Notes under the pieces: generated by a model
What the model was told of the DNA's origin: nothing
What the model saw: the letters and a program-made list of their open reading frames with translations, nothing else
The model's database searches: none
Assembly: GCA_003427395.1 (NCBI GenBank)
Contig: BFEA01000004.1
Location: 7,100,037-7,145,993, forward strand
Direction: 5' to 3'
Length of the DNA: 45,957 nt
Origin: Chara braunii
Lineage: Eukaryota; Plantae; Charophyceae
Shown: positions 13,346 to 43,877 of the stretch, in pieces
How the letters are laid out: each line of letters starts with the position of its first letter
How positions within the stretch are numbered: the stretch's first letter is position 1
Translations under genes and position numbers: made by a program

Positions 13346-13401
13346 GACATAAGAGTTTTTGCTATGACAAAACCCGTACTGAGAGGACAGTCAGAGAGGC
13401 G

Positions 13402-19488: not shown

Positions 19489-19512
19489 GAAAAAAAAAGA
19501 TTTTTTTTTTTT

Positions 19513-19566
19513 ACCATTTCTCGATTCATGCGTATCATCCTTGCGCAGGGGTCATGCAATCTCTGT
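19513..19566 (-). pseudogene. U6: U6 snRNA 3'-half retrocopy with poly(A)
   Basis: Reverse complement ACAGAGATTGCATGACCCCTGCGCAAGGATGATACGCATGAATCGAGAAATGGT followed by A12 matches the plant U6 3' half. Confidence 0.88.
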
Positions 19567-20024
19567 CACTATGCGGCCAATCTCGGCCACCAGATCTCAG
19601 GATCATGCGATCGAGATTGACCGTTGTCGAGCGCATCGGTCCCTCAATGGGCGAGACCCTCCCAGCCGCGTCACGTAGGAGTTGGTCTTATCGCGATACA
19701 AATGGAGCTTCCATTGCCGCTCCGACCGAGTGTACCAACCATGTCTCTCGCCAGCCCCTACTACAGGATAGGGCTTATGCGAGGTACAACTTACCTCAAC
19801 TTGCGGGAACTGTCATCTCCCTTCGGTGGGCGTATCCCTGCCGAGCTACCAGTCCACACTACGAAAGTTAATCAGTTGCAACCGCAGAGGTGTGTCAGCC
19901 GAGGGCATTTCTCATACGCTGTAGCATAGGGGGTACACGCGGTCCCACGCCTCTATCGGGCCCGCATTTGGGGGCTGAAGTGCCGAGCGCTGTCGAGCGC
20001 ATCGGTCCCGCACGGGGACCCTCC
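19564..20024 (-). mobile_element. LTR 3' portion (U5-like) of the gypsy element, ending ...GTGACA at 19564
   Basis: Terminal CA abuts the unrelated U6 flank; internal direct repeat TGTCGAGCGCATCGGTCCC (~19625 and 19991); similar to the LTR remnant at 17.7 kb. Confidence 0.55.
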
Positions 20025-21676
20025 TTTATGGTGCCGGCCCTCAATCTCTGCTCAACCTCTTCACTTTCGCTTATCTCCTCTATCCTCACGCCCTGATGAT
20101 CTTCTACTTCCTGCCAAATACAGAAAGCGGCCGGGGGGGCTGGTGGAGCTGGGGCATTAGCACGCCGCAGAGCTTCTTCCCTTATCCCCCCTGGGATTCT
20201 CGGGTCTATGCACTCACCGTACATGTCGAAAAATCACCATCATAGCTTGAACTCATCAGGCAATCCTTTTCATCACTCTTCCGGACCTGACATAACTTAA
20301 TTGTGTGACCCTTTTGGCCACAATGCCAACAGATGGCATTTCTCCAATTTATCCTTCCTCTTCCATATCCTCCACCGCCTTGCTGGTCACTCTGATTCCC
20401 CGCACCGTTCCACCTGTCACTTCCTCCTCTCTGGGAGTTACTATTCGCGTTTCCTCTCCCATATCCCCCGCGGCCACCATTTCCTCGCCCTCGGCCTCAT
20501 CCTTGATTTTGTCTCCGTCCGGCGTCCACCACCTTGATTCCCTTGTGATCCTTGTGGGGCCGACTGCTGAGGTTGGCTTGGCGGTGGGTTCGAGTGACTC
20601 ACCTGTTGAGACTGGGGTCCCGACTGTTCACAGGAAGCAGTACTCATCCGCGCTCCGGCACATGATCCATGTGGCCCGCCCGTTGGCCATGGTGCATATG
20701 AATAGTGTCCACGCCAATGATTGGGAGGTCCACAACCTGGCCATGACCCATAGGGCGCTGGTGCGGCTTGACCGGACGACTCTGGGGGTGGCATCGCCAC
20801 AGCCGGCGCGGCTTGACCTTTTCCTGAGCCTTGCCCTCCTTGAGTCGTGTTCCTTGCCTTCCTTTGAGCCTTTGTCAACTTTTGTGGTTCAGGTTCCTCT
20901 TCTTCTTCTTCCTCCTCCTCTAGCACTGCCACCTTCTTTCCTTTCCCTTGGGCTTGTGGCGCCGTCATAGCCTTCTTTCTTGCCTCCTTTTCTGCATCGT
21001 GCTGGGTCACAGTCTCTTCTATCATTAGTTTGAAGTTGCCCCCATCACTAGCGATAGTATCCAAAGTCTTCCTTTTCTTCCTAGCCTGTTTCATCTGGAA
21101 GATGTCTACCTGGCCCAACTCTCCCTCTAGCACGCCTTCTTTTATGGCACCCCAAGTAAGTTTTTTTCCTGGCGCAGCTTTCTTGGTTAGCGACGAGGCT
21201 TCCCAATTCTTGAAGTGCCCCAGGAAAGTGGCACACTGTTCTTCTTCTGCCAGCCCTAGGACTTTTTTTGCCATCTTCTCAAATGCTGTGGCAAAGGCCC
21301 CTACCGTGGAGAACTCGTCCCGTCTCAACATTTCCACGTCTTCTTTTGTGAGAAGGACGTCCCCTAACTTGAAACGCCTCTGCATCTCTTCTTTAAACCT
21401 TGCCCACTCACCATTTGCGTCGGCCGCTACTTTCATTACCTCAGGTCTAAGCTCCCACCATAAGTACCTAGGCCTCAACTTGAATTTGTCTGCCTCTGAT
21501 GCCTCGCAAGTGACCTGCTCCAACAGCTCAAGCCACTCGGACACCCTATCCCCATTGAACTGGAAGATGTTAACCTTGGGCACCAGAAGCCGTGCCATCT
21601 CTCTCTTTTCCAAAGCCTTGACGAAGTCCTCCGGTGTAGCACCCGGGCCCTGCTCGATTCCATCGGAGTCCGGCAT
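20020..21676 (-). pseudogene. gag: Ty3/gypsy gag, N-terminal block (capsid-like region, Gly-rich linker, CCHC knuckle)
   Basis: MPDSDG...VPKVNIFQFNGDRVSEWL...; frameshift near 20520; CWHCGQKGHTIKLC (CX2CX4HX4C) at ~20293-20334; ends at AGTIKE. Confidence 0.88.
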
Positions 21677-22023
21677 CTTTGTCCTTTCTCAAAACCTGTT
21701 GCAAAAAAAACAATTTCGACAAACATCTTGCCGTCAAACCTCTAAACTCTCTAGTTCCATTATTCAATCGAACATACTTTTAATAACTAAGGTAGTCTAT
21801 CCGGCCTTTATATCGTAATTTCGACTCTATTATTTGAAACGAATACACACAAAGCACACTCTCAACCTTACTCGCAATCAAAAATAAATTTTGTTAGGCC
21901 ATCGAAGATAGCACAATACTCATATCATCATCAAACTTCTTCATCAAGGGTTGTTGTTTTGCCTGAATCATCAGCCTGCTCTTAACCTGGGTTCCTTCAC
22001 TGTGGACCCCGGTAGGCAGCCGA

Positions 22024-22043
22024 GATCCCCGGCAACGGCGCCA
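22024..22043 (-). promoter_or_regulatory. Primer-binding site complementary to tRNA-Asp, abnormally fused to pol instead of an LTR
   Basis: TGGCGCCGTTGCCGGGGATC is the complement of the plant tRNA-Asp(GUC) 3' end, the Athila-type PBS. Confidence 0.9.
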
Positions 22044-22740
22044 CCTCGTCTTGAAGTAGAGCATTGGCCAAGAGGTATATCCCACCTATCGACCTCTCGT
22101 GCCCTTCCACCTGTTGCGCCCCATTTTCCATCATGAGTAGGTCTTCGTGCAACTGGTATTTGTCTGCTAAGGCTAGATTCATCATCCACTGCACGTTTGA
22201 CACTCCCCATGAGTCTTCCTCAATGTAGGGCTTAAGAACTAGATCTGATCGTCGTACATGTCCTGGAGGCGCGAGCCACACAGGTTGTCCAGGAGTAACG
22301 TAGTTACCCACGGCCATCGACCAGGAGTTGATGTGAAGTCTCACATCCTCCTCACTGTCCAGAAACCCGTCGACTGGCGGAGTATCCTCGATCACTCCTT
22401 GATTATTTTTGTCCCAGTCGACTAGACTCAATCCGTCTGCTCTATTCTTATTTCCTGGAATTCGCTCTAATTCAAAATCGAACATCCAGATGTATGTTAA
22501 CCACCTGGCGATAGTCGGGTCTGATGGGGCGAAGTTCTTGAGAGAACCGGCTAGAGCAGTTGGGTCCACCCTCAACACGAACCTGTTGCCGAAGAGGTAG
22601 TTTCTAAAGATCCTTAAGCAATGGAGAACCGCCAAGGTCTCGCGCTTAAATTGAGAGTAATTTCTCTCAGTTGTGTTAAGCGTGCGACTTTCAAACCTTT
22701 GTGGCCGCTCTTCTCCGTTAAGGTCTTGCTGAATCAACAC
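22044..22740 (-). pseudogene. pol: Ty3/gypsy RNase H and linker (5' part deleted)
   Basis: RNYSQFKRETLA, LRVDPTAL, NRADGLS; ends at LLQDEVA. Confidence 0.9.
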
Positions 22741-24052
22741 ACATCCTAGCGCAGTTGGCCCTGCACAATTCCTTCTTTAGGCCCTTTATTACCAACTCCT
22801 GCTTATCTCCCCATTCCCAGTCTTGTCCTTGACGCACGAGCTTTCGAAGCTGTTCTGTCTTTGCCGCAAACCCTTTTATGAAGATCCTCCAGAACCCACA
22901 TGTCCCGAGGAAACTTCTCACCTCCGTAATAGTCTCGAATGGGGTTGGCCATTCGAGAATCTTATTGGTTTTCTTAGTGTCTGGTCGACGACCCCTCTCG
23001 TCGCACACAAACCCCAAGATGGTGGCCCCGCTCATGCAGTGTCTCGATTTAGACTCACTTGCAATGAGGTTATGCTCCTTTAGCAGGTTTAGGACTCTGC
23101 ACAGGTCTTGCACATGGTTCCAAACAAAGCGTCTAATCCCTGGCATTACCTCCTGCTCGTTCTTCTCTTTAGGCCCTTTTACGACTAAATCATCAATGTA
23201 AGGCTGAGTAATGTGAGGGCTTACTGACTGCATTGCCCTCACCATGTGCTTCTGTACCATGGCGACTGCATTTATCCACCCTTGTGGTGCGACGTTCATA
23301 TGAATTAACCCTCGAGGGGTATGCATTGTCGTCATCGGTCTGTCAGAGGGGTAAATAGGAAACTGGTCGTAACCAGAATATAAGTCTATGAGAGATATGA
23401 TGGCTCTCCCAGCGTATGCCTCTGAAAGCGCATCTGCGTTAGGGAGACTACCTGCATCTCTCATAGTTACAGCATTCAGGAGCTGCAAATCCTGTACCCA
23501 CCTCAAGGTCCCGTTTGGTTTGACGAAACAAAACCAAGGGGATGCATATGGTCCGCTCGAGTAGTCGGACACATGTGTGCGGATTTTCCCGTCAAGGTAG
23601 CTAACTACCTTTTTTTCGTCAGCCGGATTAGGGTACCGCGCGCCTCGCAAATTCCATGGCTCGTGGGGAACGGTATGTATCCTAATCATTGGGATTCTAT
23701 CCACGTCCAGACGGTCCCGTTCATCATCATTGAAGGCATATGCAGTATGCCTTCCTCTTATGGTCTCTACCATAAACCTCTCCTCTTGCGCCGTAAGGAA
23801 GCCGGGTTCCCCTATAATCAGCGTCTTTTCTGTCTCGGGAGTGATACGACATGACCCTATCTGTGCGTCCTCTCGCATTTGTCGTATCAATTCTCGTTCC
23901 CGCTCGTAATAAACTTTTTGCTCCTCAGTAACGAGTACGGGAACAGGGCGGCACTTCTGATCTACCCTCTTATACCGCCTTTGTGAACCCTGCTTGAGCT
24001 TACCCCTAAAAAGGCCGAGTTGCAGTTTGGGGCTGTGCTCCTGCGATTCCAC
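22741..24052 (-). pseudogene. pol: Ty3/gypsy reverse transcriptase
   Basis: YASPWFCFVKPNGTLRWVQD, IDLYSGYDQ, PQG, YIDD, VRSFLGTCGFWRIFI. Confidence 0.95.
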
Positions 24053-25139
24053 CTATCCTTCCAGGCACTCGATATACGAGTTCTGCCTCACCTTCACCTC
24101 TCCTCTCCATCACCTTTTCCCTGAGGGCTTCTACTGCCACAGGGTCTGCCATTCCATAGGTGGATACTATGTCCATAGCATCCCCTATATTAGTCAAGCT
24201 GAGGGAGAGGNCCTCNNATGGCTCTTCGCCTTCAAACACCTCACCCTCCAACCTCAACCTTTCTACCTCTGACTCTTCAATAGTAAAAGAGTCAGGGTTG
24301 GGCCGATTTCTTATGCTTCGTGGCCCTGTGTTCTTGCATGTGATTACCTCATAGCTCCCACACACAGGGTCACAAAGTACCAAAAACATGGTCCCATCAT
24401 GCTTATTCAGTATGACGGTCTTCCTTCAGCTCAAAAAGGATCGGCCCAATAGGATGGGATGGTCGAGATCGGTCATTACAAAAAAACAACTTCTCACTTT
24501 AACCTTGCCAATTTTTAAAACCACTCTCGATGCGGTCCCTATGAACACAGACCGACTATTTGCTCCCATTAAAACTCCATTATCCGAGCGATCAATCTCC
24601 ATCCCCAAGCGTAAAATATGTTCCTCTTTTATGAGGTTCATTTCCGCCCCAGTATCCATCATTGCCGTGCACATTTTTCCTTTTACTACTACGTCCAAGC
24701 ATCCACATGCGACGGACTTCCAATCCATCTTCGTGCCTGTCTCTGCCCATTCCGCTTCCCTGGGGATAATGGTTCCCAAGCGCACACTTGCCACTAACCT
24801 TCTGGACAATCGAGCCTTTAGCTCATCCCTCAATTTTAGAGCGGAGGCGAGGATATCTTTTAAGTTCATTAGGTCGTTATGGCCCTCAAGGAGTCAATTG
24901 ACCATTCCTTCCACGTCAAACCCCTCCTCCATTCTGACCTTATATTTTCTTCTCTTGCCCTCTTGTTCCTTACTAGCGCCGGCCTTTGCATCCCTCTTTT
25001 TGGCTATTTCTTCAGCCTTCTTGTCCTCTTCCGTCCTTAACCTTTCAACAGGTCCTCCATCTTCTCCATCGTATCTCTTGCCCTTACCAAATTATCATCT
25101 TCTCCTTCGCCGTCCGATTCAACCACTATGGGTTCCTCC
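24006..25139 (-). pseudogene. C-terminal block of the gag-protease ORF (aspartic protease)
   Basis: Starts EEPIVVESD; MDTGAEMNLI active site; ILLGRSFL; in-frame TGA stops (probably from CGA); ends ...TRPF*. Confidence 0.9.
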
Positions 25140-25871
25140 CCTTTGGGTCATCTCTGCAGTCTGCTCCTCTTTCCGTTGAGTCCTGCCAATATGCTGGTCC
25201 TCCCGTCTCTCCTGCCTCTGGGACCTGTGCTCTCTCCTCTGGCCATCCCTCTGAGCTCCTGAGGTCATGCCCTGCTCAGAGGTTCTCCTCTCTGCAGTTT
25301 CTGGCTCCTTCCTCTTTCTTCCCATACTCCTCTCGTCAGCCTGACGTGCCGGAGTATAGTGGTTCCAAAGCAATTTCTTGCAATGGCCCCAGTTCTGGGC
25401 AGGCTCCACAATAGATCTGACGAACGGCCTGAGGTATTTCCTCACAAACAGAATAAAACTCCTCACCCTCTGGCTTGGTGGCTCGTTGATGCTATCTGCA
25501 AACTCGTCGTAGCCCTTCAGGAACTCCCACAGGTTAGTGGCATCAAAACGAATGGGCCGTCCATCTCTGCCTAGCGGCGATGGGTGCAAGCCCTCCATCT
25601 TCTGCTCAAAATCCTGCCAGGTCAATGACTCCCTGACGAAGTTGGCAAGGGGCTGTGCCCACTCGCCTGCTCCTCGCACCTCCCGCAGCATCCTGCTACT
25701 ATCCCATCCAAACTCATGACCGTGCCTCCTGAACCCAACCATGAACAGCTCAACGTTGTCTCCTGTATAAATGGGTGGCCAGTCCTCTCTCCTGGCCCTC
25801 ACCTGCGCCCCCTGTCTGGTAACCCCCAGTGGGGTTTCCACTGGCCCTGCCCCTCCCCTCCCTCTTGGCAT
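25135..25871 (-). pseudogene. N-terminal block of an extra ORF (ORF3) downstream of integrase; Gag-capsid-like
   Basis: MPRGRGG...PPIYTGDNVELF...RFDATNLWEFLKGYDEF...W; preceded by a pyrimidine tract and TGCAG acceptor ending at 25897. Confidence 0.65.
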
Positions 25872-26136
25872 GGCTGCCCAAAAACTGGTGTCAAGCCTGC
25901 ACAACAAGGAAGAGACAGACAAAAGCACACAAAGGGTAAGTAGGTTCGACAAACAAAACAGGAGACAGACATTCCCCTCCCATATCTACCTTAACTACAT
26001 ATACATACATGTGTAAATACACGTATATAAATCTATCTTAATACTATACTCTATCACACCATTCTACTGAGAAACATACACAATTTTCCCATATATATAT
26101 ATATATATATCTAGTATTACTTAACAGAAAGGGATT

Positions 26137-27520
26137 CTAAATTGTGGGACCCATGCTCACCTCGTCTCGAGCGACAAACTTCTTCAATCTCGAGCCTGAC
26201 ACCCAATCTTTCCAGGCAGTCCCATTCAGCTCTTCAATCTGGTATGCCCCATGCTCTCCACTCCTCGTGACCATGTATGGTCCTAACCACCTCTTGTCCA
26301 ACTTTCGCGACCACTGCTTCTCTAAGGATGAATGGTATAGTAGCACAACGTCGCCCACCTTGAGAGGCTCCTTCCTTACCCTTGCCATCTTATCCCACCT
26401 GAACTTATCCCTCTGTCCGGTGTCAGCCACCTTACTCGCCGCACTTTCAATTTTGTCCTCTATGACATTAATCTGATGAACCCTTAAGTCTAGCAGTTTC
26501 TCAAATGACAAGTTTGTCTCGAGGTCCTGCCGCCTCCAAGTCTTTAGGAAACTTTCGATAGGGAAGGTCGCATGTCTGTCATACCACAACGTTGCTGGCG
26601 CGTAGTTGGTGCTTCTTCTGACAGTGATTTTATCCACGAAGAAGGCGACCCTTAGGAAGTTAGGCCACTGATTTGGCCTACCATTCGTCCACTTAGCGAG
26701 GAGATTCGTAATCGTACTATGACCCCTCTCCACAGGTGCATTAGCTTGAGGGTGCGCCGCAGTAGTATACTCTGCGATCACTCCATACCCTCTCAGCAGT
26801 TCTTTCACCTCAGCACAAGTGAATTCGGACTCTCTGTCCATTACGAATTTGGAGACAAAAGGGTAGCGGAGGTAATACTCCTCAATGCATCGAGCCAAGG
26901 TCTCACCAATTTTTGTGCGTATGGCTCTGCCATCTACAAAACCGGAGAGGTTGTCACGTGCATCGAAGATGAAGTTATACCCACCTACTCCCAGCGGCAT
27001 TGCCAATAAGTCCAAATGTACGACCGCCCCAACCTCACGTACGTACCTTGGGTGAAGCGGCTCCCTAGGTCTAATGGAAGACCGCTCCTGGCATGAAACA
27101 CATGACTTGCAATAATCGTTGATCATTCGTCCCATGCCATCCCAATAGTATAGCTCGTGTATTTTGAGGAAAGTTGTATCCTTACTCCTATGTCCACCTG
27201 CCTTACCATCATGTAGGGCAGTTATGACGTCGATCTGACGAGCGATGCCGCAGACTACCCTTCTTGGAGTCTTCCCTTTACTCTTCATAAATAGATGGTC
27301 ATCCCTTACTAAGAAGTTTGGTCGCATCTTGAGAACTTTCTCGCACGTATCTTTCTCTCATTTCGCACGAAAGGAGCATTCCTAATTCCAGATATATCCC
27401 GTTATACTCCTCCGTGCGAAAAACCTCTTTTATCTCTCCCTCTTCAAAATCGTGGTCCTCTCCTTCGTGAACTATATTCTCATTCTCGCCTTGCCGTTGA
27501 TCCCCGATCCTTGCCACCTC
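26137..27520 (-). pseudogene. pol: Ty3/gypsy integrase (HHCC, DDE, GPY; no chromodomain), with a frameshift near 27310
   Basis: LHDGKAGGH...CVSC; VHLDLL; FVMDRESEF; PVERGHST; WLGPY. The upstream linker starts EVARIGDQ. Confidence 0.93.
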
Positions 27521-28850
27521 CGCTGGCAAGTAGCATTACAACTGACAATCATTCATACGATGTCGCTCACAATCCCGTCTAGGCAATATCCTGCATCAGT
27601 ATCTGAAGTAGTAAACGACAGCTCCTAGAATTTGCAATTGCTGCTGCTAAAACCATCCTCTCTCAGCAGCAACGTCGCCGCACAAATTCAAACAACAGTT
27701 GTCGACAGGCTAAGTCTCAGTAGCAGACCCAATGATGACCTCCATCATAGTAGTACCTCATGCTTAACAACACCATCAATACTTCAAAAGAAAGAAAAAG
27801 GGAGACTCGCTGCTCTGTTGTGCTGCTGTAAATAAGACAACAATGTCGGAGAACTCAATCAACATAGCAGTTCGCAGACTTTCAGGGCATCAATAACCAC
27901 CAAAATAGCAGTTGCCGATCCACAGACCATGTGCATGACTCAAGAATACTTCAACTGTTGGTGTCGCAACTTAAGTAAGTCTGTTGCTGCGAAAATCCAA
28001 ATCAGGCCTCCAGGGGTCCGCTACAGCCTTCCAAAGGCCTGCTACAACGCCGTAACAGTAGCCAAACATCAATCCACTGCTGCTAGAAGTCCCTTCTTAT
28101 AGACAGATGTTTGCTGCAATACCAAAAAAAAAAGGTCCACAATGACTCAAATCTGGGTGAAGTAGCAACGGAGCAGGACCTAGACCAATCGTGAAGAGAA
28201 AAGTCCAACCCACTGCATTATTCATCAATGCACACAGTGGAACTGATTCCCCCACTAAAGTACGACCAGATACAATGTCAGATTTTGTACTGAGCTAAAC
28301 TGTGCAACTCAACACCTTGGTTCCTCTCGTATGGCGGCTGCTCCAACACTCATCATCTTGCAAAACAAAAGTAAATCTTCGGCTAGAACATGGGAAGATG
28401 CATGCCCTTCTTGCCTGATATCTTAACTTCCGTTCGTCCCGTATTACCGCCACTGCCAGCCAAGTACACCCTTCCCTCCATTTTCTTGTATTCCACTTCC
28501 TCCTCCTCTACCTATTTCCGATGTGCCGCCAAGCAAACTGCGGACCAGCCAGCAACCGTAGTGATACAATGTGAATGTATATGTGCTATTTTTCCGGTCC
28601 GGTACAACCTTCCCACACCTGTCTACATGACTACACCCACGCTCGCGCACACATGCACACACCTGCACACTCACCACCATGCTCACGCTCCAGCGCATAC
28701 GTGCTTGTGCCTACATGCTCACCCGTATGCACGCGTGATTACACCTTCCTGCTTCTCTTCTTCCCCTCTACCTCTATTCCTCCTCTAAAAGTTGTCATGT
28801 CCAAGGATATGCCGCGGCACATTCTTCAATAATCTACGAGCAAGTGCTTG

Positions 28851-28895
<45 letters not shown>

Positions 28896-31800
28896 TGTGC
28901 CTTCTCTCTCTCCAGGTACGGGCATACCTGGCCATTTCACCTAACAGGAGGGGGAGAATACTTAGCGTTCAAGGCATGATTATGGTCGAGATCCCCCTGA
29001 AAAGGCAAGCACGAGGATGAGCCTACTCACGAAGACATAGCTGAGTCACGATGGTGATGATGAGCCTGCTCCCGAAGACATAGCTGAATCACGATGGTGA
29101 CGATGAGCCTGCTCCCGAAGACATAGCTGAATCACGATGATGACGATGAGCCTACTCCCGAAGACATAGCTGAATCACGATGGTGGGCTCAAGCAACAGA
29201 ACCACGAAATCTGCAGCGTCAGAATCGGGATGAGGAGCACCAACCCGTCACACAGTCCCCCACCAGAAAATGCAGAATGAGAATGAATCTGATGCAAAAA
29301 CGCAGGAAAATACACCGCCGAAATTCCTTCCCTGCGTTTGCTTTCTGCCAAGCACAACGCAGCCTCTGACTCACACAACAGAAAAACGGCTACCCTATCG
29401 CAGAATCTAACCGCGCCAATCGATTCCTGGTGCCTCAAAACCCCAAGTTAGGCTCTTATTTCGCTCGAATCCGTAAAGAAACGAATGAGATAAGTGTTTT
29501 CTCCTCCTTGCCATATCCTCTTTCCCGTCACCTCCGNGCACTCTCTTCATCTCCTAACTTTAATCCAACTAACGTTTCACCAAAAGTGAACCCAAATTCG
29601 GGGTCGCCATAGTCAATAACCCTGAAATAGACTCTTCTTCGGCCCCATTTCATCAAGTAACGGCCTATATCTCATCTCTTCACCCCCTGTTTCCCATTCT
29701 TCTTGTTCTCCTATTTTGAATGCACCTTGCTCATACCCACGTCCAGATCCATTTGCCCTCCTTGGTTCTTTAGTCAGGCCAGCGCAATCTCCATCTCCGT
29801 TCTCTCTCTAGGCCGGCCAGCGCAGTCTCCTTTGTCCCCCTCGAAGTGGGAATCTGCCTCGTCTCCCTCGAAGTGGGAATCTGCCTTGTCTCCCTTCATA
29901 CCTGCTCTCCCTCGACACCATCTTTCCCTTCTTCTTCCCCGTAGCCCATTACTCCATGAGCCTCTCCCGCCAGCCAAAGTACGCCCAGATGATAGCGCAC
30001 GGTCCAACAATCTTGAGCACCTTAATGGAAGTGAAATCCTGATCGCCGGACCTCGCTGTCCTATATAGCCTAGAATGGCATATTTGCATAGCTTACTCGT
30101 GCCACACTCAAGGAATGAATCNGGCCAAATCTAGGCACTAGGTCCATTCANCCCAAGAAAAANTGTAGTGCAGCTCCTCAAAAGGAGAAGAGGGGCTGAG
30201 AAAAGAAATACAAATAAAATAAAAATAAAAGTTGGGCTTGGTGAAATGCCTAAACGATGGGGTCGTGGCCCACCTAGGTGCCTTCTCCGGATCGGACTCT
30301 GATCTATATTTCAACAGTCTGTGAGTATGCCAATCGAGCTAGGCTTGTTGGTACTTGCTAGCATTGCTGCAGCCCCCACCAAAATCCCTCTGGTCCGCTG
30401 TTCCCAGGCGTAGCTCCCCTACTACCGCCCCCAACAGGCATGCTCACATCCACTCCTCACAGCGGATCGTGGGCAGCGGACGTAGCCTCCCTCTGGCTGC
30501 GTCCTGCTTCGAGGCCTGTAGCATGAGCCTAGGCGGGACGGATCCCAACACGGATCTTGGTGGTCATTATTCAAATGAGAATTTTTGAAGATGGAAGTGG
30601 GGAGGGGCTCTATGTGACCGCAGCTGCAGCCGGCGGCCTCCGCCCTGGTGTGCCCGCCCCATTGTGCCCAAGCGCAGTCTACCATCTTTCTGGTCTCAAC
30701 GGGAATGCTCACACTGCGGTCCCAAATCTGCAAAATGTGCAGATTTTGGAACAGACTAGTTCGGGGTTTTGAGCATGGTTCAGGTCACACTACTGTACCT
30801 TTTCAGGTTGGATAGAGCCCTGGCTGTCTGGAGCATTGGCGAACCGATACTTTGCTGGTCACCCGGCGCCATCCACATATTGTGCAAAAAAATCCAGGTC
30901 CCGAAATAAATAAATAAAAATAAATAGGGCATTTCCCTTGCCCCGCGGCTCCACAGGCCGCTGACAAAATGGGCACACCAATGGTGCATCCGGGACTTTG
31001 GCAAAAATCTGCGTGACCAGTCTTGTCCCTCATGGGCCCCAACGGGCATGCTCCCACTCAGTTCCTACTGCAGATCGTGGTTGGCGGACACCGCACTTGC
31101 AGAGAGGCGCCCAATGCTCAACTTTTCCTCCGTCTCGCGGTCAGTCACCCATCAGTTGTCATGCACGTTGACTTTCTCCGTCTGCATTTCAACAATTCAT
31201 GGGCGTCAATCGAGCTACGCTCGCTGGACTCCTCAAACAACTCCGATACCGGCATTGTCACCGCATCCCAGAAACGGGACCGACAACAAAAAAAAATAAT
31301 TAGATAAAAATAAAATAAATAAAAAAATAAAAACACAAGCTTCAGGAACTCGCGCTTTGGGGAAGAGAGATTGTCAGTACCACTCTTAGTTCCGCCAACC
31401 GGGCCTACGGATGGGCCGACAACAAAACCAAGGGGGATAGCCCTGCCGGGCCCTCAACCCCTCGATATCTTCAGGAAATGCTCCTCCGCTCTTGTAATGC
31501 TGGGTGCTGGCCTCCATCCCGAGATCTGCTGGCTGAAAGTTCAGTACGTTAACCAATAGGGCTAAGCCCAAGCCTGACCTTAGCATACGCGAATTCGTAT
31601 ATCAGTAGTATTCGCAGCCTGTCTGGGCCTGTAGTTAATGCACTGAGGCCGCCGCTTGCTCCGCCTTCGAGCCTAAGGCCTCGCAATGCCGTGCTTGGCT
31701 GCTTGGGAGGAAAGTTATCGCTCAGATCACCATGCCCACTGCCCCGCCACACTGCGGCCGCGGCCGAGGCTTTCATAGCCCTCTACACCCGTCAAACGAG

Positions 31801-33521
31801 CGCGCTCTTACCCCCCTTCGGTTGGAAAGACCCCGACTTTTGCTCATGCCGTACCAAGTTAAGCTTTCCTCGGCTCCCACTGTNNNNNNNNNNNNNNNNN
31901 NNNNNNNNNNNNNNNNNNNNNNNNNNNNNNNNNNNNNNNNNNNNNNNNNNNNNNNNNNNNNNNNNNNNNNNNNNNNNNNNNNNNNNNNNNNNNNNNNNNN
32001 NNNNNNNNNNNNNNNNNNNNNNNNNNNNNNNNNNNNNNNNNNNNNNNNNNNNNNNNNNNNNNNNNNNNNNNNNNNNNNNNNNNNNNNNNNNNNNNNNNNN
32101 NNNNNNNNNNNNNNNNNNNNNNNNNNNNNNNNNNNNNNNNNNNNNNNNNNNNNNNNNNNNNNNNNNNNNNNNNNNNNNNNNNNNNNNNNNNNNNNNNNNN
32201 NNNNNNNNNNNNNNNNNNNNNNNNNNNNNNNNNNNNNNNNNNNNNNNNNNNNNNNNNNCTATCCAACCCTCTAGCTTATTTCTAACTGGGACCGCCGAGC
32301 GGTCTGTTTTATTCACACTAGTCAAACATTTAGCTAACGCGTGCCCACAAAGTGCATGCCCGCACACACTCCCTGAATTAACCATGCGTGCGCTCGCCAT
32401 TTCCTGAATTCCGAGAGTCAGTCGCGACCGAGCGAAAAACACGCCGCTCTCTCAAATACCATCAAGTGTGCTCCCGCTGCGGGGTGCAAAAATGCGCACA
32501 ATTACCCTTGTAAGGGTAATGGTGTCGACAGTTTTTCCGGACCCTATTAAGCGACGTCCCCGTCGCGTCGAACAATCAAAGGCTATAAGCACTCCAAATC
32601 CCATCTGCTGACGAGGTAGTAACCATTCCGACTAGCCGGCTCGACTCCGTTAGAGGCATCTTGTCAATCTACCCCAGTCACGACGTTCCACTGCCACGGT
32701 TTTAACCTGGGTCTCCCACATCTTGGCCTAGGAGTTAGGGTGTACTGTCATCCGTACTACAGCGTAATACCTGCTTCCAAGTAGTAGATTGGTAGCCCTC
32801 CTCCCTTCGTCGTAGACATCTGCCGGTTTATCGTTGGGTGTCCTAATGAGTCATCGTCCCGCATACGGGGTCATAACTCAGGACGCGGGCCCTAACCGAG
32901 ACCTCTCTAAAAAACCAGGGCACCTTTAGTCCCCAAAATGGTAATTTTTACCATCTCAAATATTTCTCATAATAACTGTCCACCCTGGTGTCTACACAGG
33001 AGGTTTCAGGTCTCCATCTTGGCCCACCGCAGAATGGTCGATCACACCGTATCCACGGCTTATCACGCTGTTATATAGCGATGATGCCCTCGTTGGTTGC
33101 GCAACGATAGGCGTACTTACCAACTCTTAGACTCATTCAACCCCACTGACCCCCCCCCTAGCTATCCCTCTCCGGGCGGCCGACCCTTCAAGATTTAACC
33201 ATTGGTGAGTCGTGGTCTCGCTGCCAAGTTGCGCCGGTCAGCGGCCCTCGCTGGGAGTTAGGTTCTATAGTTCCAACGATGCTAAGTATAGCCCCTTAGC
33301 TTGGCCTCACAAAATATGTCCCCCTAGACTAACCATTGTGGTCTGACAAATAGCTCTGGACAACCTCTAGATTCACATACCCTCCCAACCTCGGACCATG
33401 TGGGGGATAGTGTCTCTTTCTCTTTGTGTTCCAGCAACTTTCTCTCTTATCCACAAGGTCGTGCCCCCCCTTTACTTTGATCAGAACAGGCGGCGGTCAC
33501 ACGTCTTAGGGACACCTCACA
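27521..33521 (-). mobile_element. Long non-coding LTR-like region (may include nested pieces; contains a gap)
   Basis: Candidate LTR start TGTGAGGTGTC at 33521, just after purine-rich GATGGGAGA and downstream of the ORF3 3' UTR; TATA-like TATATAG at ~30061-30067; no real ORFs. Confidence 0.4.
29016..29185. repeat. 43-bp tandem repeat x4
   Basis: GATGAGCCT.CTC.CGAAGACATAGCTGA.TCACGATG.TGA. starts at 29016, 29059, 29102 and 29145. Confidence 0.92.
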
Positions 33522-34577
33522 AAAGTCTCCCATCATGATTGCCAGAAAATTTCCATCCATAATTCTCACAAAGATTTTGGTCTGCCCTCGCCAGACTTTC
33601 ACTCATACATACAATTTCCTCATCATTATAGCAACTCATTTGAGTGCGCCCTCATAGTTCCACTCTTATATATATGTGGAGAACCTAACGGTCATTGAGT
33701 CTCCTTCTCTCGTTTTCTTATGAACCATACAAAAGACACAACTTTTAGTTGTGACCTCTCCATTTATCATCACTCAAATTCTTTTGAACTCAACACATAA
33801 TCCCTTCTTCCAAACAAACGTGAGGTGCACTCTCTTTCACTGTACTTATGACTTTGTCTGTTCTAATGACAGATATGCTTAAGTACAGAGGAAAATAGTG
33901 CAGGTCAGGTCATTTCCACAACATTTATTCTCGTCACAATAATCATTCATATGGGCAAGTCAACAACTGAGAGTGAGCGTGACACACCACACAAAAAAGA
34001 AAAAAAATCTGAGATTCGCACAAATACACAGAACGCGGGGACCTTGCAAATAAGCAAAGGTTCCTGTTAATATCGAAAGGATCAAAATATCGTACAAAAG
34101 AAATAAAATATCGTACAAATTACCGGGGTATCGTACCAAGTGCCACAGTATCCAACCAAAGATCAAGGTACCTGAAAAAAGTCAAAATATCCGAGAAAGT
34201 CAAAAAACAAAAGAGAGTCAGAGTATCCACACCTCACATCACTCACACACTGTCCGACTCACCCTGCTCTGAAAGAGAAAGAATCATAAAATCACACAAA
34301 AGCACTACCTAGAAGCTAGAAACACTCCACACCACACTAAAAAAAGAGAAAGGAAAACCGAAGTAGTTACTGTCATACACAATACTATCCTATGTACACT
34401 AAGTCTGAAAGTCTATATGCGAAAGTAAACATCTTTGTAATGACTCAATTAACTGATGTACATGGGCGTGATCCAATCCTCCATGTGTTCTCCTATATAC
34501 AGTCATCCATCAGTAGTGAGTCAGAGATGTTCTACACATGTCAGAATCTAGACTTTTTCGGACTCTATTCGTAAATC

Positions 34578-36155
34578 CTACTCCTGATCACTCATGTCCT
34601 CCTGCAGTTGCCTATACAACTGTGCCCGTATCCCATCACGAGTCTTCAGGATCAGGTTTCCATCTCCGTCCCTGCGCACGCCAGATGGATCCCATGAAAA
34701 CAAACCATCGGCCTCATCCTTGAGGCTTTTGGAACAGGTTTTCTGTGGGTGCTTGCCTTTCTTGCAGTAGAAGCATCTTCCAAACTTCTTCTGCTCCATC
34801 TTATCAGCTGCATGGGAGGGTACAAATGAGGGGTTTGCTGTGGCCTCACTGGTGACCTCCTGCTGTGGGTGCTCTGGGGGAATGGGGCATGCTGCTCTGT
34901 CATCTGTTTGCGCCATCTGCTCACTCACTCGCTCCTCTGCCCCGGATCCAGTGGCCCAAGATCCCAGTGCATCCTCCAGACCTGCAACCAGAGGCATATC
35001 CTGAGGTGGTGGGGTCTTCTAAGAGACCTCCCGCTCCTCCCTCTCCTCAGCCTCCGCCATGGCCTGTCCCACACTCTCCTGAACCTTCTGTCGCCCCACA
35101 GTCTCCCCCTGAGTCATGGGAAGTGCAGCCTCATCCATCGCATCCTCTGCTGGTGGCCTCGCCTCATGTGCCAAGACTGTGGGCATCCTCCACTCAAACC
35201 CCCCAGTCTCTGACCCCGTCCCTGCTAGAGCCTCCTTAGGCTGTAACATCTCCTTATCTAGCAGGGGGATTTCCTCATCCTTCTGCTCGTTTGCCCTCTC
35301 TTCCACCTTCTGACACTTGAAGGCCTCCTCTGCAGGCTGCTTCCTGATCTTAAGCCCCTGGACCTCTGTCCAATCCACCACCGTAGTCGGCGTCTGTTGT
35401 ACACATTTGGCCTCAAGATCCTCTATCCTTTTCTCCCACTTGGCTTCCTTTGCCTGAAAAATATTACGTTGTACCTGCAAGTAGGTCCTCAGGGTGTCAT
35501 TGACTTTGTTGAGGGTCTGGTTGACCTGTCTGATGGCCTCGTTGCCTGCCCACGCCTTCTCCACCTCAGTCTTTATGGCTTCCATCTTCTTGTCCTGTCC
35601 CTCAAACTCCTTCTTGAGATCACCAATTTCTTTCTGCCAGTCCATTTTCTGCTCATGAGACGCCCGCGCCACCCTTGTCAACCTCTTCTCCATCTTTTCA
35701 TCAGAAGTCTTGGCCGTCGCAAAGCCCTCCTTCATAAGGCCCTTCAGGCTAATCAAGTCTGTAGACACCAGCTTAACCCCCATCTCTTGATGCTGCTCCC
35801 TGGACCTCCCTGTTGCCTCCAACAACTTATCAAAGTTGTCCCAAGCCTCCGTGAAAAAAGGAGTCTCATCGTCTTGAGTGGGTGAGCCATTCCCCTCTCT
35901 GTCTTCTAGTACCACAGGCTGCTCTCCCTGCTCAACTTTCTCGTGCAGCTCCGCCATGTTCTTGAGTCTGATTTGGACTCTGATTTCTCTCTCTATTGCT
36001 GCTCTCTCTTCCTTGTCCTGTTCCTTCTCTCTCGCAGCCTGATCCTCATCCTGTCCCTGACCCTGTGTCCTATGAGACGTCTCTGGCTGCATGCCTGGCC
36101 TAGGAGTGGCCTCAGGTATCTGAGCAGGTTGAGGAGGTACATCTGATCCCTCTGA
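34578..36155 (-). pseudogene. C-terminal block of ORF3 (coiled coil plus CCHC zinc knuckle)
   Basis: Frame is open from 36155; E/K/Q-rich heptad region; CFYCKKGKHPQKTC (CX2CX4HX4C); disruption near 35010. Linking it to ORF3N is inferred. Confidence 0.65.
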
Positions 36156-39100
36156 ATGCCTTCAATGATGATGAACGGGGCCGTCTAGACGTGGATAAAA
36201 TCCCGATGATTAGGATACATACCGTTCCCCACGAGCCATGGAATTTGCGAGGCGCGCGGTACCCTAATCCGGCTGATGAAGAAAAGGTAGTTAGCTACCT
36301 TGACGGAAAAATCCGCACACATATGTCCGACTACTCGAGCGGACCGTATGCATCCCCTTGGTTTTGTTTCGTCAAACCAAACGGGACCTTGAGGTGGGTA
36401 CAGGATTTGGAGCGCCTGAATGCTGTAACTATGAGAGATGCAGATAGTCTCCCTAACGCAGATGCGCTTTCAGAGGCATGCGCTGGGAGAGCCATCATAT
36501 CTCTCATAGACTTATATTCTGGTTACGACCAGTTTCCTGTTTACCCCTCTGATAGACCGATGACGACAATGCATACCCCTCGAGGGTTAATTCATATGAA
36601 CATCGCACCGCGAGGGTGGACAAATGCAGTCGCCATGGTCCAGAGGCACATGGTGAGGGCAATGTAGTCAGTAAGCCCTCACATTACTCAGCCTTACATT
36701 GATGATTTAGCCGTAAAAGGGCCTAAAGAGAAGAACGAGCAGGAGGTAATGTCACGGATTAGACGCTTTGTTTGGAACCATGTGCAAGACCTGTGCAGGG
36801 TCCTAGACCAGCTAAAGGAGCATAACCTCACTGCAAGTGGGTCTAAATCGAGACACTGCATGAGCGGGGCCACCATCTTGGGGTTTGTGTGTGACGAGAG
36901 GGGTCGTCCACCAGACACTAAGAAACCCAATAAGATTCTCGAATGGCCAACCCCATTCAAGACTATTATGGAGGTGAGAAATTCTCGAATGGCCAACCCC
37001 ATTCAAGACTATTATGGAGGTGAGAAGTTTCCTCGGGACATGTGGGTTCTGGAGGATCTTCATAAAAGGGTTTGCGGCAAAGACGGAACAACTTCGAAAG
37101 CTCGTGCGCCAAGGACAAGACTGGGAATGGGGAGATAAGCAGGAGTTGGTAATAAAGGGCCTAAGGAAGGAATTTGAATAAGGGGGTCTAGTACTGGGAG
37201 TACCAGACCACTCGACAGTAATGACACGACCTTTTATTGTAGAAACTGATGCAGGGTCAACTGCACTACGAGGTGTGTTGATTCGGCAAGACCTTAACGG
37301 AGAAGAGCGGCCACTAAGGTTTGAAAGTCCCACACTAAACATAACTGAGAGAAATTACTCTCAGTTTAAGCGCGAGACTTGGCGGTTCTCCATTGCTTAA
37401 GGATCTTTAGAAACTACCTCTTCGGCAGCAGGTTCGTGTTGAGGGTGGACCCAACTGCTCTAGCCAGTTCTCTCAAGAATTTTGCCCCATCAGACCCGAC
37501 TATCGCCAGGTGGTTAACATACATCTGGATGTTCGATTTTGAATTAGAGCGAATTCCAGGAAATAAGAATAGAGCAGACGGATTGAGTTGAGTCGACTGG
37601 GACAAAAAAAATCAAGGAGTGATCGAGGATACTCCGTCAGTCGACGGGTTTCTGGAAAGTGAGGAGGATGTGAGACTTCACATCAACTCCTGGTCGATGG
37701 TCGTGGGTAACTACGTTACTCCTGGACAACCTGTGTGGCTCGCGCCTCCAGGACATGTACGACGATCAGATCTAGTTCTTAAGCCCTACATTGAGGAAGA
37801 CTCATGGGGAATGCCAAACGTGCAGTGGATGATGAATCTGGTCGTAACAGACAAATACCAGTTGCACGAAGACCTACTCACGATGGAAAATGGGGCGCAA
37901 CAGGTGGAAGGGCACGAGAGGTCGATAGGTGGGATATACTTCTTGGCCAATGCTCTACTTCAAGACGAGGTGGCGCCGTTGTTGGGGATCTCGGCTGCCT
38001 ACCGGGGTCCATAGTGAACGAACCCAGGTTAACAGCAGGCTGATGATTCAGGCAAAACGACAACCCTTGATGAAGAAGTTTGATGATGATATGAGTATTG
38101 TGCTATCTTCGATGGCTTAACAAAATTTATTTTTGATTGCGAGTAAGGTTGAGAGTGTGCTTTGTGTGTATTCGTTCCAAATAATAGAGTCGGAAATACG
38201 ATATAAAGGCCGGATAGACTACCTTAGTTATTAAAAGTCTGTTCGATTGAATAATGGAACTAGAGAGTTTAGAGGTTTGACGGCAAGATGTTTGTCGAAA
38301 TTGTTTTTTTTGCAACAGGTTTTGAGAAAGGACAAAGATGCCGGACTCCGATGGAATCGAGCAGGGCCCGGGTGCTACACCGGAGGACTTCGTCAAGGCT
38401 TTGGAAAAGAGAGAGATGGCACGGCTTCAGGTGCCCAAGGTTAACATCTTCCAGTTCAATGGGGATAGGATGTTGAGTGGCTTGAGCTGTTGGAGCAGGT
38501 CACTTGCGAGGCATCAGAGGCAGACAAATTCAAGTTGACGCCTAGGTACGTATGGTGGGAGCTTAGACCTGAGGTAATGAAAGTAGCGGCCGACGCAAAT
38601 GGTGAGTAAGCAAGGTTTAAAGAAGAGATGCAGAGGCGTTTCAAGTTAGGGGACGTCCTGCTCACAAAAGAAGACGTGGAAATGTGGAGACGGGACGAGT
38701 TTTCCACGGTAGGGGCCTTTGCCACAGCATTTGAGAAGATGGCAAAGAAAGTCCCAGGGCTGGCAGAAGAAGAACAGTGTGCCACTTTCCTGGGGCACTT
38801 CAAGAATTGGGAAGCCTCGTCACTAACCAAGAAAACTGCGCCAGGAAAAAACCTTACTTGGGGTGCCATAAAAAAAGGCGTGCTAGAGGGAGAGTTGGAC
38901 CAGGTAGACATCTTCCAGATGAAACAGGCTAGGAAGAAAAGGAAGACTTCGGATACTATCGCTAGTGATAGGGGCAACTTCAAGCTAATGATAGAAGAGG
39001 CTGTGGCCCAGCACGATGCAGAAAAGGAGGCAAGAAAGAAGGCTATGGCGGCGCCACAAGCCCAAGGGAAAGGAAAGAAGGTGGCAGTGCTAGAGGAGGA

Positions 39101-40020
39101 GGAAGAAGAAGAAGATGAACCTGAACCACAAAAGTTGACAAAGGCTCAAAGGAAGGCAAGGAACACAACTCAAGGAGGGCAAGGCTCAGGAAAAGGTCAA
39201 GCCCCGCAGGCTGTGGCGATGCCACCCCTAGAGTCGTCCGGTCAAGCCGCACCAGCGCCCTATGGGTCATGGCCAGGTTGTGGACCTCCCAATCATTGGC
39301 ATGGGCATTGTTCATATGCACCATGGCCAACGGGCGGGCCGCATGAATCATGTGCTGGAGCGCCGATGGGTACTGCTTCCTGTGGACGGCCGGGACCCCA
39401 GTCTCAACAGGTGAGTCACTTGAACCCACCGCCAAGCCAACCTCAGCAGTCGGCCCCACAAGGATCACAAGGGAATCAAGGTGGTGGACGAGGACAAAAT
39501 CAAGGATGGGGCCGAGGGCGAGGAAATGGTGGTCGCGGGGGATATGGGAGAGGAAACGCGAATAGTAACTCCCAGAGAGGAGGAAGTGACAGGTGGAACG
39601 GTGCGGGGAATCAGAGTGACCAGCAAGGCGGTGGAGGATATGGAAGAGGAAGGATAAATTGGAGAAATGCCATCTGTTGGCATTGTGGCTAGAAGAGTCA
39701 CACAATTAAGTTATGTCAGGTCCGGAAGAGTGATGAAAAGGATGGCCTGATGAGTTCAAGCTATGATGGTGATTTTTTCGACATGTACGGTAAGTGCATA
39801 GACCCGAGAATCCCAGGGGGTATAAGGGAAGAAGCTCTGCGGCGTGCTAATGCCCCAGCTCCACCAGCCCCCCCGGCCGCTTTCCGTATGTGGTAGGAAG
39901 TAGAAGATCATCAGGGCGTGAGGATAGAGAAGATAAGCGAAAGTGAAGAGGTTGAGCAGAGATTGAAGGCCGGCACCATAAAGGAGGGTCCCCGTGCGGG
40001 ACCGATGCGCTCGACAGCGC
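36156..40020 (+). mobile_element. Inverted duplicate of 19987-23739 (RT-RNaseH-PBS-gagN-LTR stub)
   Basis: Collinear reverse-complement match from ATGCCTTCAATG to CGACAGCGC; PBS at 37971-37990 with two C>T changes; independent indels and stops. Confidence 0.95.
36935..37026 (+). repeat. Perfect 46-bp tandem duplication that frameshifts the RT copy
   Basis: ATTCTCGAATGGCCAACCCCATTCAAGACTATTATGGAGGTGAGAA twice. Confidence 0.95.
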
Positions 40021-43000: not shown

Positions 43001-43867
43001 ATTTTCATCAATAAAATGAGCAAAATCGGAATGAGAAAATGCGGGTAGGTTCATTCTGTATTTATGCAACAACAGACTACTTCCCTGTGCGCAGCCTATA
43101 CTCACTGTAGCACAAAATCTACCACCCCTCTCCCAAATCGAACTTCGGCAACCCGATCGAAGCGTCCCAAAACCTCTGAAACGCCTCTTCGTTCGCCCGT
43201 TTCCATGAAGAAATGGTGAGCTAGTGATCTCTACTCCCACCATAACCACTCTCCCGACATCACCGCACACTCGTTTTCTCCTACACCAACCAACTTACTG
43301 ACCTACTGCCAAGTCTAACTCTGCTATCGTATTCGCCCGCCCTTCAAACCATATTTCGTCCGTCAATTTGTCGAAATTCGTCTGGAAACGCGCGGGACAT
43401 GCAATTTCCCAGCCGCTTCCTTCCTTGCTCGTTGTCATCTCCACGCCCGACTTTCCTTATCTCCACGCTCGACTTTCCTTACTAACCTCTAACCTACTAA
43501 CTCTCTAGTAAAACCAGCGTAATATTTCGTTCCATCCGACCGAAAACGCTCAAATGGCGACTTCCCCAGCCCATTTTCACTAAGTAGTCGGTCGAGCTCA
43601 TCATCTTTTTCGCTTCTCCCTACCTCCTCTCTCTCCCGCTATAGCTTATTCCTAGCCTCCAGCCCAACTTCGTAGTCTAGTGTTGTTCCGCTAACCTTGA
43701 TACGACATCGGTGTTGACCGATACAAATAGTAGAACACTAGTCGTAGAAACCGAAATGCGCTACGGAGTAAGTAACACTCTCCCGACGGCTCGATCAGTT
43801 CGAAAGTCGATAGTGCCGCGGTATATGACCCGCGCTCGACTGCCACAACGGTTCCGACACCTTCACA
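40021..43867 (-). mobile_element. LTR-like non-coding remnant
   Basis: Candidate start TGTGAAGGTGTC at 43867 resembles TGTGAGGTGTC at 33521; no credible ORFs. Confidence 0.3.
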
Positions 43868-43877
43868 AGGGGGGGGG

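What the first reader, a model, noticed from the sequence alone, without database searches (positions are those of the whole stretch)
19564..36155. Block-scrambled Ty3/gypsy element with exactly complementary junctions: possible fossil of serial RT template jumps on one RNase H-consumed RNA
Seen: along the + strand (equivalent to minus-strand cDNA, 5'->3') the order is LTR end TG (19564), then gagN back to the PBS (20020-22043), then RH-RT-PR-gagC (22044-25139), then ORF3N-INT (25135-27520), then LTR-like region, 3' UTR and ORF3C (27521-36155). The gag break overlaps by GGAGG (20020-20024 and 25135-25139) and rejoins in frame as GTIK-EEPIVVESD. The pol break overlaps by GAGGTGGC (22040-22047 and 27513-27520) and rejoins in frame as LLQD-EVA-RIGDQ. 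Established: the native gypsy order is gag-PR-RT-RH-INT, and RNase H destroys RNA that has already been copied. Inference: strong-stop DNA jumped into gag rather than R, and each time RT reached the 5' end of remaining template it jumped further downstream. This predicts exactly this loss-free reversed block order, which random nesting or deletion would not produce.
Basis: partly seen in the sequence, partly recalled or inferred. Interest (0 to 1): 0.9.

Follow-up and report, generated by a model that had tools for sequence, protein, structure and literature searches.

The report
Retrotransposon copied backwards in pieces
A 20-kb dead jumping gene in an algal genome has its four gene blocks in reverse order with almost nothing lost, the same end at both sides and one insertion scar, and was likely made when its copying enzyme hopped four times along one RNA, folded back on its own product and was inserted anyway.

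Summary
The scrambling is real, and the unit is larger than reported. Relatives from Chara braunii keep the order A(PBS-gagN)-B(gagC-PR-RT-RH)-C(INT-ORF3N)-D(ORF3C) in 123 of 127 proteins; none has the window's joins. The window reads D-LTRpart|C|B|A|U5. Two breaks lose nothing and the third about one codon. Three joins sit on 5-7 nt microhomologies. Corrections: the element's terminus is 19991, not 19564, and only 34 bp of U5 belong to it. An inverted arm (36156-40016) repeats both left-hand joins and supplies a second U5 end. The 20,026-bp unit is flanked by GCGC on both sides, and 110 contigs show that the host LTR is continuous across the site, so this was one insertion. The arms differ by 3.75% with pN/pS 1.09, as expected if they were identical when inserted. 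Best reading (0.75): forced microhomology jumps on one RNase H-consumed RNA, then fold-back self-priming, then integrase joining of two U5 ends. Three single-copy joins have no direct read support here. It is a new variant of known template-switch products, non-functional but mechanistically informative.

The parts
19625..19986 (-). Host LTR (related subfamily), 3'-terminal part; the insertion target
   Evidence: LTR-end motif at 19625; contigs join a PBS to 19625 (table 5c); high summed depth at 19802-19971
19987..19990 (.). Left copy of the 4-bp target-site duplication GCGC
   Evidence: sequence; continuity of the empty site
19991..20024 (-). Terminal 34 bp of the family's U5, ending in CA; left integrase end; inferred first cDNA piece
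   Evidence: 60-65 loose ends with unlike flanks before 19991 and 73-80 loose ends with native LTR behind 20024, in each of 3 runs of one sample
20020..22043 (-). Block A: PBS (22026-22043), leader and N-terminal gag, to the GGAGG site
   Evidence: tblastn of relatives; native U5-PBS joint
22040..25139 (-). Block B: gag C-terminus, protease, RT, RNase H
   Evidence: Pfam; relatives; lacks 74 bp at 22767 that arm 2 holds
25135..27520 (-). Block C: RH-INT linker, integrase, N-terminal part of ORF3
   Evidence: Pfam; relatives
27521..33400 (-). LTR-derived stretch without the U5 terminus (right boundary approximate, about 33270-33520); contains single Ns and a 375-N gap
   Evidence: collinear matches of about 65% to the host LTR at 42587-45070; depth rises left of about 33470; no family U5-end motif
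33401..34577 (-). 3' untranslated region with polypurine-tract candidates (boundaries approximate)
   Evidence: sequence; internal-level depth; PPT not pinned down
34578..36155 (-). Block D: C-terminal part of ORF3 (coiled-coil-like stretch, CCHC motif)
   Evidence: relatives P0001, P0011, P0012, P0123 run from block C into 36155
36156..40016 (+). Inverted arm: copy of 23739-19991 (part of RT, RH, block A, 34-bp U5) with the same B|A and A|U5 joins; supplies the right integrase end
   Evidence: 64 loose ends with unlike flanks behind 40016
40017..40020 (.). Right copy of the target-site duplication GCGC
40021..45070 (-). Continuation of the host LTR (right boundary not determined)
   Evidence: 110 contigs whose loose end before 40016 matches the left flank; collinear similarity to 29276-32530

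Best explanation
The 20,026-bp unit 19991-40016 is one dead Ty3/gypsy insertion whose blocks lie in reversed order between two U5 ends, and it was likely made by one reverse-transcription reaction that jumped four times on a single RNA, then folded back on its own cDNA, and was likely joined to the chromosome by integrase. Inferred sequence of events, read along the + strand (= minus-strand cDNA): (1) tRNA primes at the PBS and RT copies only the 2-nt spacer and 34 nt of U5, probably because the RNA was broken or began there and had no usable R. (2) The cDNA end pairs with GGAGG in gag and RT copies back to the PBS. (3) RNase H has removed what was copied, so RT is at a template end again; it pairs through AGGTGGC in pol and copies back to the gag site. 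(4) It pairs through GGAGG in ORF3 and copies back to the pol site. (5) It jumps into the LTR part near the RNA's 3' end and copies back to the ORF3 site, which uses up the RNA. (6) The free 3' end primes on its own cDNA at 23739 and copies back to the cDNA's start, giving the inverted arm and a second U5 end. (7) Second-strand completion (PPT priming with strand displacement, plus a second priming at the copied PBS or host fill-in) gives a linear duplex with U5 at both ends, which is inserted into a relative's LTR with a 4-bp duplication. SHOWN: block order, near loss-free breaks, three microhomologies, two U5 termini, duplication and flank continuity, neutral divergence of the arms. INFERRED: that RT rather than DNA repair made the joins, the single template, the fold-back, step 7.
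For: Native order A-B-C-D in 123 of 127 relatives; window-type joins in 0 of 127. Breaks are complementary: A|B and B|C lose nothing, C|D about one codon. Microhomologies read against other copies: 5 nt at U5/gag (loose ends), 7 nt at PBS/pol (joint 40015-37968), at least 5 nt at gag/ORF3. Random site pairs of this element share 5 or more nt in 0.62% and 7 or more in 0.062% of draws. The 7-mer occurs only twice in the template left at that step. One break lies exactly at the PBS, a template end made by RT itself. Both termini are the family's exact U5 end with the 2-nt spacer absent. GCGC flanks both; 110 contigs carry, before 40016, a consensus whose last 19 letters match 19967-19985 at 16 places without a gap (compared by eye), so the flanks were adjacent. 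Family flanks begin or end with the palindrome ACGT, compatible with a 4-bp RCGY target. The arms differ at 136 of 3737 columns, evenly spread, K2P 0.0375; 31 synonymous and 84 nonsynonymous changes, 4 to stop, pN/pS 1.09, as for arms that were identical at insertion.
Against: No listed contig bridges any window junction, though only 24 of about 15,460 and 8 of 8,348 pieces were shown. The microhomology of the fourth jump is unknown, because the native continuation of 27521 was not seen. The fold-back join shows no clear microhomology. TSS and poly(A) site are unmapped, so it is not shown that 27521 lies inside the transcript. The first 11 of the 30 letters of the flank consensus do not match the left flank. 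An A shared by the host site and the LTR's CA leaves a 1-bp ambiguity (a 5-bp duplication if the right end lacked its A), and the family's TSD length was not measured directly. GCGC is a palindrome, so a DNA-level inverted copy ending on it is formally possible. The pN/pS value has no proper control from active copies. Non-homologous switching is reported to be at least 1000-fold rarer than homologous switching (PMC3187697, passage), so five such events require that no second RNA was usable. The DNA runs are one sample and may be the source of the assembly.
Confidence: 0.75

Rival explanations
1. Still one RT reaction, but the RNA was cut into pieces beforehand (nuclease or small-RNA slicing) and RT jumped end to end between the pieces; RNase H did not set the borders.
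For: Also loss-free, also gives a U5 stub, fold-back and TSD. All break sites contain AGG. RT can clamp very short end pairings in vitro (PMC3035444, abstract start in the search listing).
Against: Fixed fragment ends would match the cDNA end over 5-7 nt only by chance (0.6% and 0.06% per join). The strictly progressive order A,B,C,D would arise 1 time in 6 once A is first. Each donor end keeps the word that the earlier jump paired with, as expected if RNase H cut just inside the new hybrid.
Confidence: 0.1
2. A normal element was rearranged as DNA after insertion (circle excision and reinsertion at microhomologies, or break-and-rejoin), then an inverted duplication by replication template switching ended on the palindromic TSD.
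For: Three break sites share GGAGG and two share AGGTGGC, which would allow crossovers. Reciprocal exchange is loss-free. GCGC is its own reverse complement.
Against: The reciprocal products are absent: block D is preceded by the inverted arm, not by upstream U5, and the U5 stub runs straight into the host flank. There is no U3 terminus at either end, and the unit holds LTR sequence upstream of U5 only once. The arm begins exactly where D begins. At least five separate events would have to keep every block in the same orientation.
Confidence: 0.08
3. Two independent tRNA-primed cDNAs, each with the same first two jumps, annealed at their 3' ends and filled each other in.
For: Gives two U5 ends directly, without a second priming step.
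Against: Needs identical non-homologous jumps twice. No relative shows these joins (0 of 127). With two RNAs present, homologous transfer should have won. The arms diverge neutrally.
Confidence: 0.03
4. Misassembly of a high-copy family.
For: Short-read scaffold with gaps; no bridging contig listed.
Against: Two joins occur in two arms that differ by 3.75% and have private indels. Assemblers misjoin at long repeats, not at 5-7 nt words (established knowledge). An error would not give complementary breaks, two exact U5 ends and a TSD in a continuous host LTR.
Confidence: 0.04

Closest known systems
Template-switching complex LTR retrotransposon insertions of grasses (Sabot & Schulman 2007, PMC1950507; whole text read, supplements not seen)
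   Same: An abnormal structure made during reverse transcription and inserted in one step, diagnosed by one flanking TSD and outer ends of common origin.
   Different: Those are head-to-tail dimers with three LTRs, made by a homologous R-to-R switch between two RNAs. This one has reversed internal blocks joined at 5-7 nt microhomologies, one template's worth of sequence, no R transfer, and inverted U5/U5 ends.
Non-homologous intramolecular template switching in retroviruses: deletions, deletions with insertions, duplications (review PMC3187697, passages read; the primary papers PMC54464 and PMC189744 were not held and are known to me from the reference list and recall only)
   Same: RT leaves an RNase H-exposed cDNA end and re-anneals on the same RNA; the dynamic and forced copy-choice logic applies.
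   Different: The products named there lose or duplicate sequence and keep normal LTRs. Here the jumps go downstream each time and tile the RNA with about one codon lost inside the coding region.
Self-priming (fold-back) of minus-strand DNA in HIV-1 assays (review PMC6088434, passages read)
   Same: After RNase H removes the template, the cDNA 3' end primes on itself and is extended into a hairpin.
   Different: Described there as a dead-end in vitro product of short strong-stop DNA, not detected in endogenous reactions. Here it would be a 3.86-kb stem with a 12.4-kb loop that reached the chromosome.
Autointegration and rearranged ecDNA of LTR retrotransposons (PMC12951756, passages read)
   Same: Rearranged by-products of LTR-element replication.
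   Different: Autointegration joins an LTR end to internal sequence and gives circles. The internal joins here are not LTR termini, and the product is a linear chromosomal insertion.
DIRS elements with inverted LTRs (search listing only) and LINE twin-priming inversions (abstract start)
   Same: Inverted terminal or internal segments in a retroelement.
   Different: This family encodes a DDE integrase with an H2C2 domain and has a PBS. Inverted ends and reversed order are not native to it.

Membership tests
Ty3/gypsy LTR retrotransposon (source family) | Native domain order gag-PR-RT-RH-INT | tested here: met
   Relatives map A-B-C-D in 123 of 127; Pfam PR, RVT_1, RT_RNaseH, H2C2, rve. The window copy itself is out of order.
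Ty3/gypsy LTR retrotransposon (source family) | LTR ending in CA, short spacer, tRNA PBS | tested here: met
   Native joint of the LTR end to the PBS with a 2-nt spacer. That the PBS matches tRNA-Asp is recalled, from no call.
Canonical intact LTR element (this copy) | Two direct LTRs with a U3 end and a U5 end | tested here: not met
   Both termini are U5, inverted
Integrase-made insertion | TG...CA termini without the spacer bases, and a short TSD in a continuous target | tested here: met
   19991 and 40016; GCGC twice; 110 contigs link the flanks
Integrase-made insertion | TSD length equals the family's usual length | tested here: inconclusive
   Flank consensus ACGT suggests 4 bp; no intact copy with both flanks was available
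Template-switching complex (Sabot & Schulman) | Single TSD and outer ends from one RT cycle | tested here: met
Template-switching complex (Sabot & Schulman) | Three direct LTRs and two complete internal domains | tested here: not met
   One internal domain in reversed blocks plus a partial inverted arm
Autointegration product | Internal joins formed by LTR termini | tested here: not met
   The internal joins are microhomology sites; the A|U5 join is 34 bp inside the LTR end
Propagating family with native permuted order | The same joins at other loci | tested here: inconclusive
Env-bearing (errantivirus-like) element | ORF3 is an envelope protein | tested here: inconclusive
   No Pfam hit for either ORF3 part; it ends in a CCHC motif in 3 of 5 relatives checked; no BLASTP similarity to the element's gag; atlas search unanswered

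The most novel reading that the evidence does not exclude
This is a complete in vivo trace of reverse transcription on a lone, R-less RNA: an LTR-retrotransposon particle can rescue such a template by a chain of forced microhomology jumps and a fold-back, and its integrase accepts two U5 ends. 'Reversed blocks, no loss, inverted U5 ends, one TSD' would then be an unrecognised, searchable class of insertion, whose overlaps record where RNase H first cuts in vivo and which shuffles retroelement domains in one step.
Probability: 0.4. Interest if true: 0.78.

Novelty: new variant of a known kind. Interest (0 to 1): 0.62.

Why it matters
The element is dead, so it is not a new biological system. 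Its value is as a record. A loss-free, progressively reversed block order is what RNase H consumption of a single template predicts and is hard to obtain otherwise. If the reading is right, (i) an LTR-retrotransposon particle completed cDNA without a usable second RNA, which bears on how strictly two packaged genomes are needed; (ii) fold-back products, treated as dead ends in vitro, can be integrated; (iii) a gypsy integrase can use U5/U5 ends in vivo; (iv) the 5-8 nt overlaps between blocks estimate the first RNase H cut after a jump. The signature can be screened for in any long-read genome, where such loci are probably dismissed as nested fragments, and the two arms date the event as a pair of LTRs would.

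Tried and rejected
No whole genome was held, so junction k-mers could not be counted genome-wide. A metagenome scan with the 19-nt LTR end gave 28 loci, none with a window match of 40 bp or more: chance hits. Aligning the distant LTR at 17712 to the right flank scored 88.5, within the shuffle range (maximum 95 of 30), so it gave no support for flank continuity; one search settled that instead. Test for letters shared by both arms against other copies: 18 of 39 and 5 of 13 listed places shared, taken from tables that showed 40 of 264 and 40 of 204 rows; inconclusive. Synonymous share among shared places 6 of 15 and among arm-1-private places 3 of 19: too few to test. No RNA holder listed; one RNA run laid 33 reads, mostly on the left flank: not used as evidence. 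ORF3N against gag by BLASTP: nothing. No tRNA gene in the window. Two look-ups of earlier findings returned nothing. Ten literature searches listed no paper on a loss-free reversed-block or U5/U5 insertion; the library lacks most older virology papers (two wanted ones were not held), so this is weak evidence of novelty. Rejected: 19564 as the LTR end; back-splicing (joins resemble AG|GT, but only 2 of 4 have GT and it explains neither the ends nor the TSD); simple nesting (no internal LTR termini or internal TSDs at the joins); native permuted order.
Full report
Source. All 120 listed hits of the RNase H region and all 14 hits of ORF3N are Chara braunii predicted proteins, up to 93% identical, so the window is very likely from this alga or a close relative. 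It is a gapped scaffold.

Anatomy. On the minus strand the window carries protease, RT, RNase H and integrase domains. I use A = PBS-leader-gagN (20020-22043), B = gagC-PR-RT-RH (22040-25139), C = INT-ORF3N (25135-27520), D = ORF3C (34578-36155). In sense direction the window reads D, 3'UTR, LTR part | C | B | A | U5 stub. All blocks are on the same strand, in reverse of the expected order.

Native order. I mapped 127 relatives block by block with tblastn, without joining anything. 123 follow A-B-C-D or a sub-order of it; 4 do not, and they look like gene models over two adjacent elements or carry weak stray hits. Direct passage across the native joins was seen in 2 of 127 (A-B), 81 of 127 (B-C) and 4 of 127 (C-D), and across the window's B-A or C-B joins in 0 of 127. 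P0001 passes all three at 88-93% identity in most blocks. At residue level A-B and B-C lose nothing. At C-D, relatives have one Pro between the end of C and the start of D, so about 3-4 nt are unaccounted for. These are gene models with predicted introns, a biased sample.

The ends. Laying contigs of three DNA runs (one sample) on 19122-24210 showed 60-65 loose ends per run, with unlike flanks, before 19991; 73-80 loose ends with one shared sequence behind 20024; and joints from the PBS (22043/4) back to 19990. 19625-19986 is the end of a related LTR. The self-comparison shows an inverted arm, 36156-40020 against 23739-19987, which starts at the base after D and repeats the B|A and A|U5 joins exactly. 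Laying one run on 32259-41300 showed 64 loose ends with unlike flanks behind 40016 (a second U5 end) and 110 contigs with a loose end before 40016 whose consensus matches 19967-19985 at 16 of its last 19 letters; its first 11 letters do not match (by eye). The left and right flanks were therefore adjacent in the host LTR, with GCGC present once there and twice here. The right flank is also collinear, at about 65% in short stretches, with the unit's own LTR part. The unit is 19991-40016, 20,026 bp, one insertion with a U5 end on each side. An A shared by host and LTR leaves a 1-bp ambiguity. The family's flanks show the palindrome ACGT, in keeping with a 4-bp target, but the TSD length was not measured on an intact copy.

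The joins. U5/gag share GGAGG (native U5 context). PBS/pol share AGGTGGC, since the family has a GG spacer (joint 40015 to 37968). Gag/ORF3 share at least GGAGG. Random site pairs in this element share 5 or more letters in 0.62% of draws and 7 or more in 0.062%; the 7-mer occurs twice in B+C+LTR+D, once at the join. The native context of 27521 was not seen, and the fold-back join has no clear microhomology.

The arms. 136 substitutions in 3737 columns, K2P 0.0375, spread evenly, with private indels in each arm. In 1009 codons there are 31 synonymous and 84 nonsynonymous changes, 4 to stop; codon positions 37/41/37; pN/pS 1.09. This fits arms that were identical at insertion and decayed neutrally, but I had no proper control from active copies, and the shared-letter test was inconclusive. 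Two diverged arms with the same joins also argue against misassembly of those joins.

Mechanism. Established knowledge: RT starts on a tRNA at the PBS, RNase H destroys copied RNA, and the cDNA must switch template at an RNA end (PMC3187697, passages). Inference: without a usable R, each template end forces a jump to any short match in the RNA that remains, which is always the downstream part. RT then copies back to the previous landing site, where the RNA now ends. This gives same-strand blocks in reversed order, each ending on the word used by the earlier jump, with one border at the PBS: the pattern seen. Self-priming of this kind is known in HIV-1 assays as a dead end (PMC6088434, passages). 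How the second strand of the right end was completed is the least certain step; a second priming at the copied PBS, with PPT-primed displacement synthesis, would do it. Because homologous switching is far more efficient, the chain implies that no second RNA was usable.

Rivals. Pre-cut RNA with end-to-end jumps (0.10) explains the tiling but not the 5-7 nt matches or the progressive order. DNA-level rearrangement (0.08) predicts reciprocal joins and a U3 end, which are absent, though the palindromic TSD keeps it formally possible. Two cDNAs with identical jumps (0.03) and misassembly (0.04) are weak.

Limits. TSS, poly(A) site and LTR start are unmapped. No nucleotide-level comparison with an intact copy was made, which leaves the exact bases at the ORF3 break and at 27521 open.

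Comparison. The nearest genomic precedent is the three-LTR template-switching complex (PMC1950507, whole text; supplements not seen): same diagnosis by one TSD, different product. Retroviral non-homologous switches give deletions, insertions and duplications. Autointegration gives circles joined at LTR ends (PMC12951756, passages). Ten searches of an incomplete library listed nothing with loss-free reversed blocks or U5/U5 ends. Verdict: real, a new variant of a known kind, interest 0.62.

Noticed in passing
window 25119-25985 and 34578-36155 (-): This Chara family carries a long third ORF after integrase on the sense strand, with no Pfam match, a coiled-coil-like middle and a terminal CCHC motif in 3 of 5 relatives checked. 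It could be a second gag-like or RNA-binding protein; BLASTP to the element's own gag found nothing.
   Followed up: partly
window 19625-19986, 40021-45070 and 17712: The LTRs of this group appear to be very long (over 5 kb) and nest in each other. A third, more distant LTR end lies at 17712; both it and 19625 are preceded by CCGT.
   Followed up: partly
family flanks: Flanks of the family's LTR ends have the consensus ACGT next to the terminus in all three DNA runs, suggesting a palindromic, CpG-centred target preference.
   Followed up: partly
window 36935-37026 and 22767: Arm 2 has an exact 46-bp tandem duplication; arm 1 lacks 74 bp that arm 2 holds. Both are probably later than the insertion.
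   Followed up: yes
window 29016-29185 and 28854-28881: Four 43-bp tandem repeats and a (TC)14 run inside the LTR-derived stretch.
   Followed up: no
window 11783-15125 (+): Broken LINE-like element (RVT_1 hit at 14655-15125, E 2e-7), interrupted by a repeat at 12791-13269 that recurs inverted at 45434-45916 (80%).
   Followed up: no
window 41356-41942: Degenerate AT-rich repeats with a period of about 245 bp inside the host LTR.
   Followed up: no
window 203-2233 (+): A 676-codon stop-free frame of low complexity with no Pfam match.
   Followed up: no
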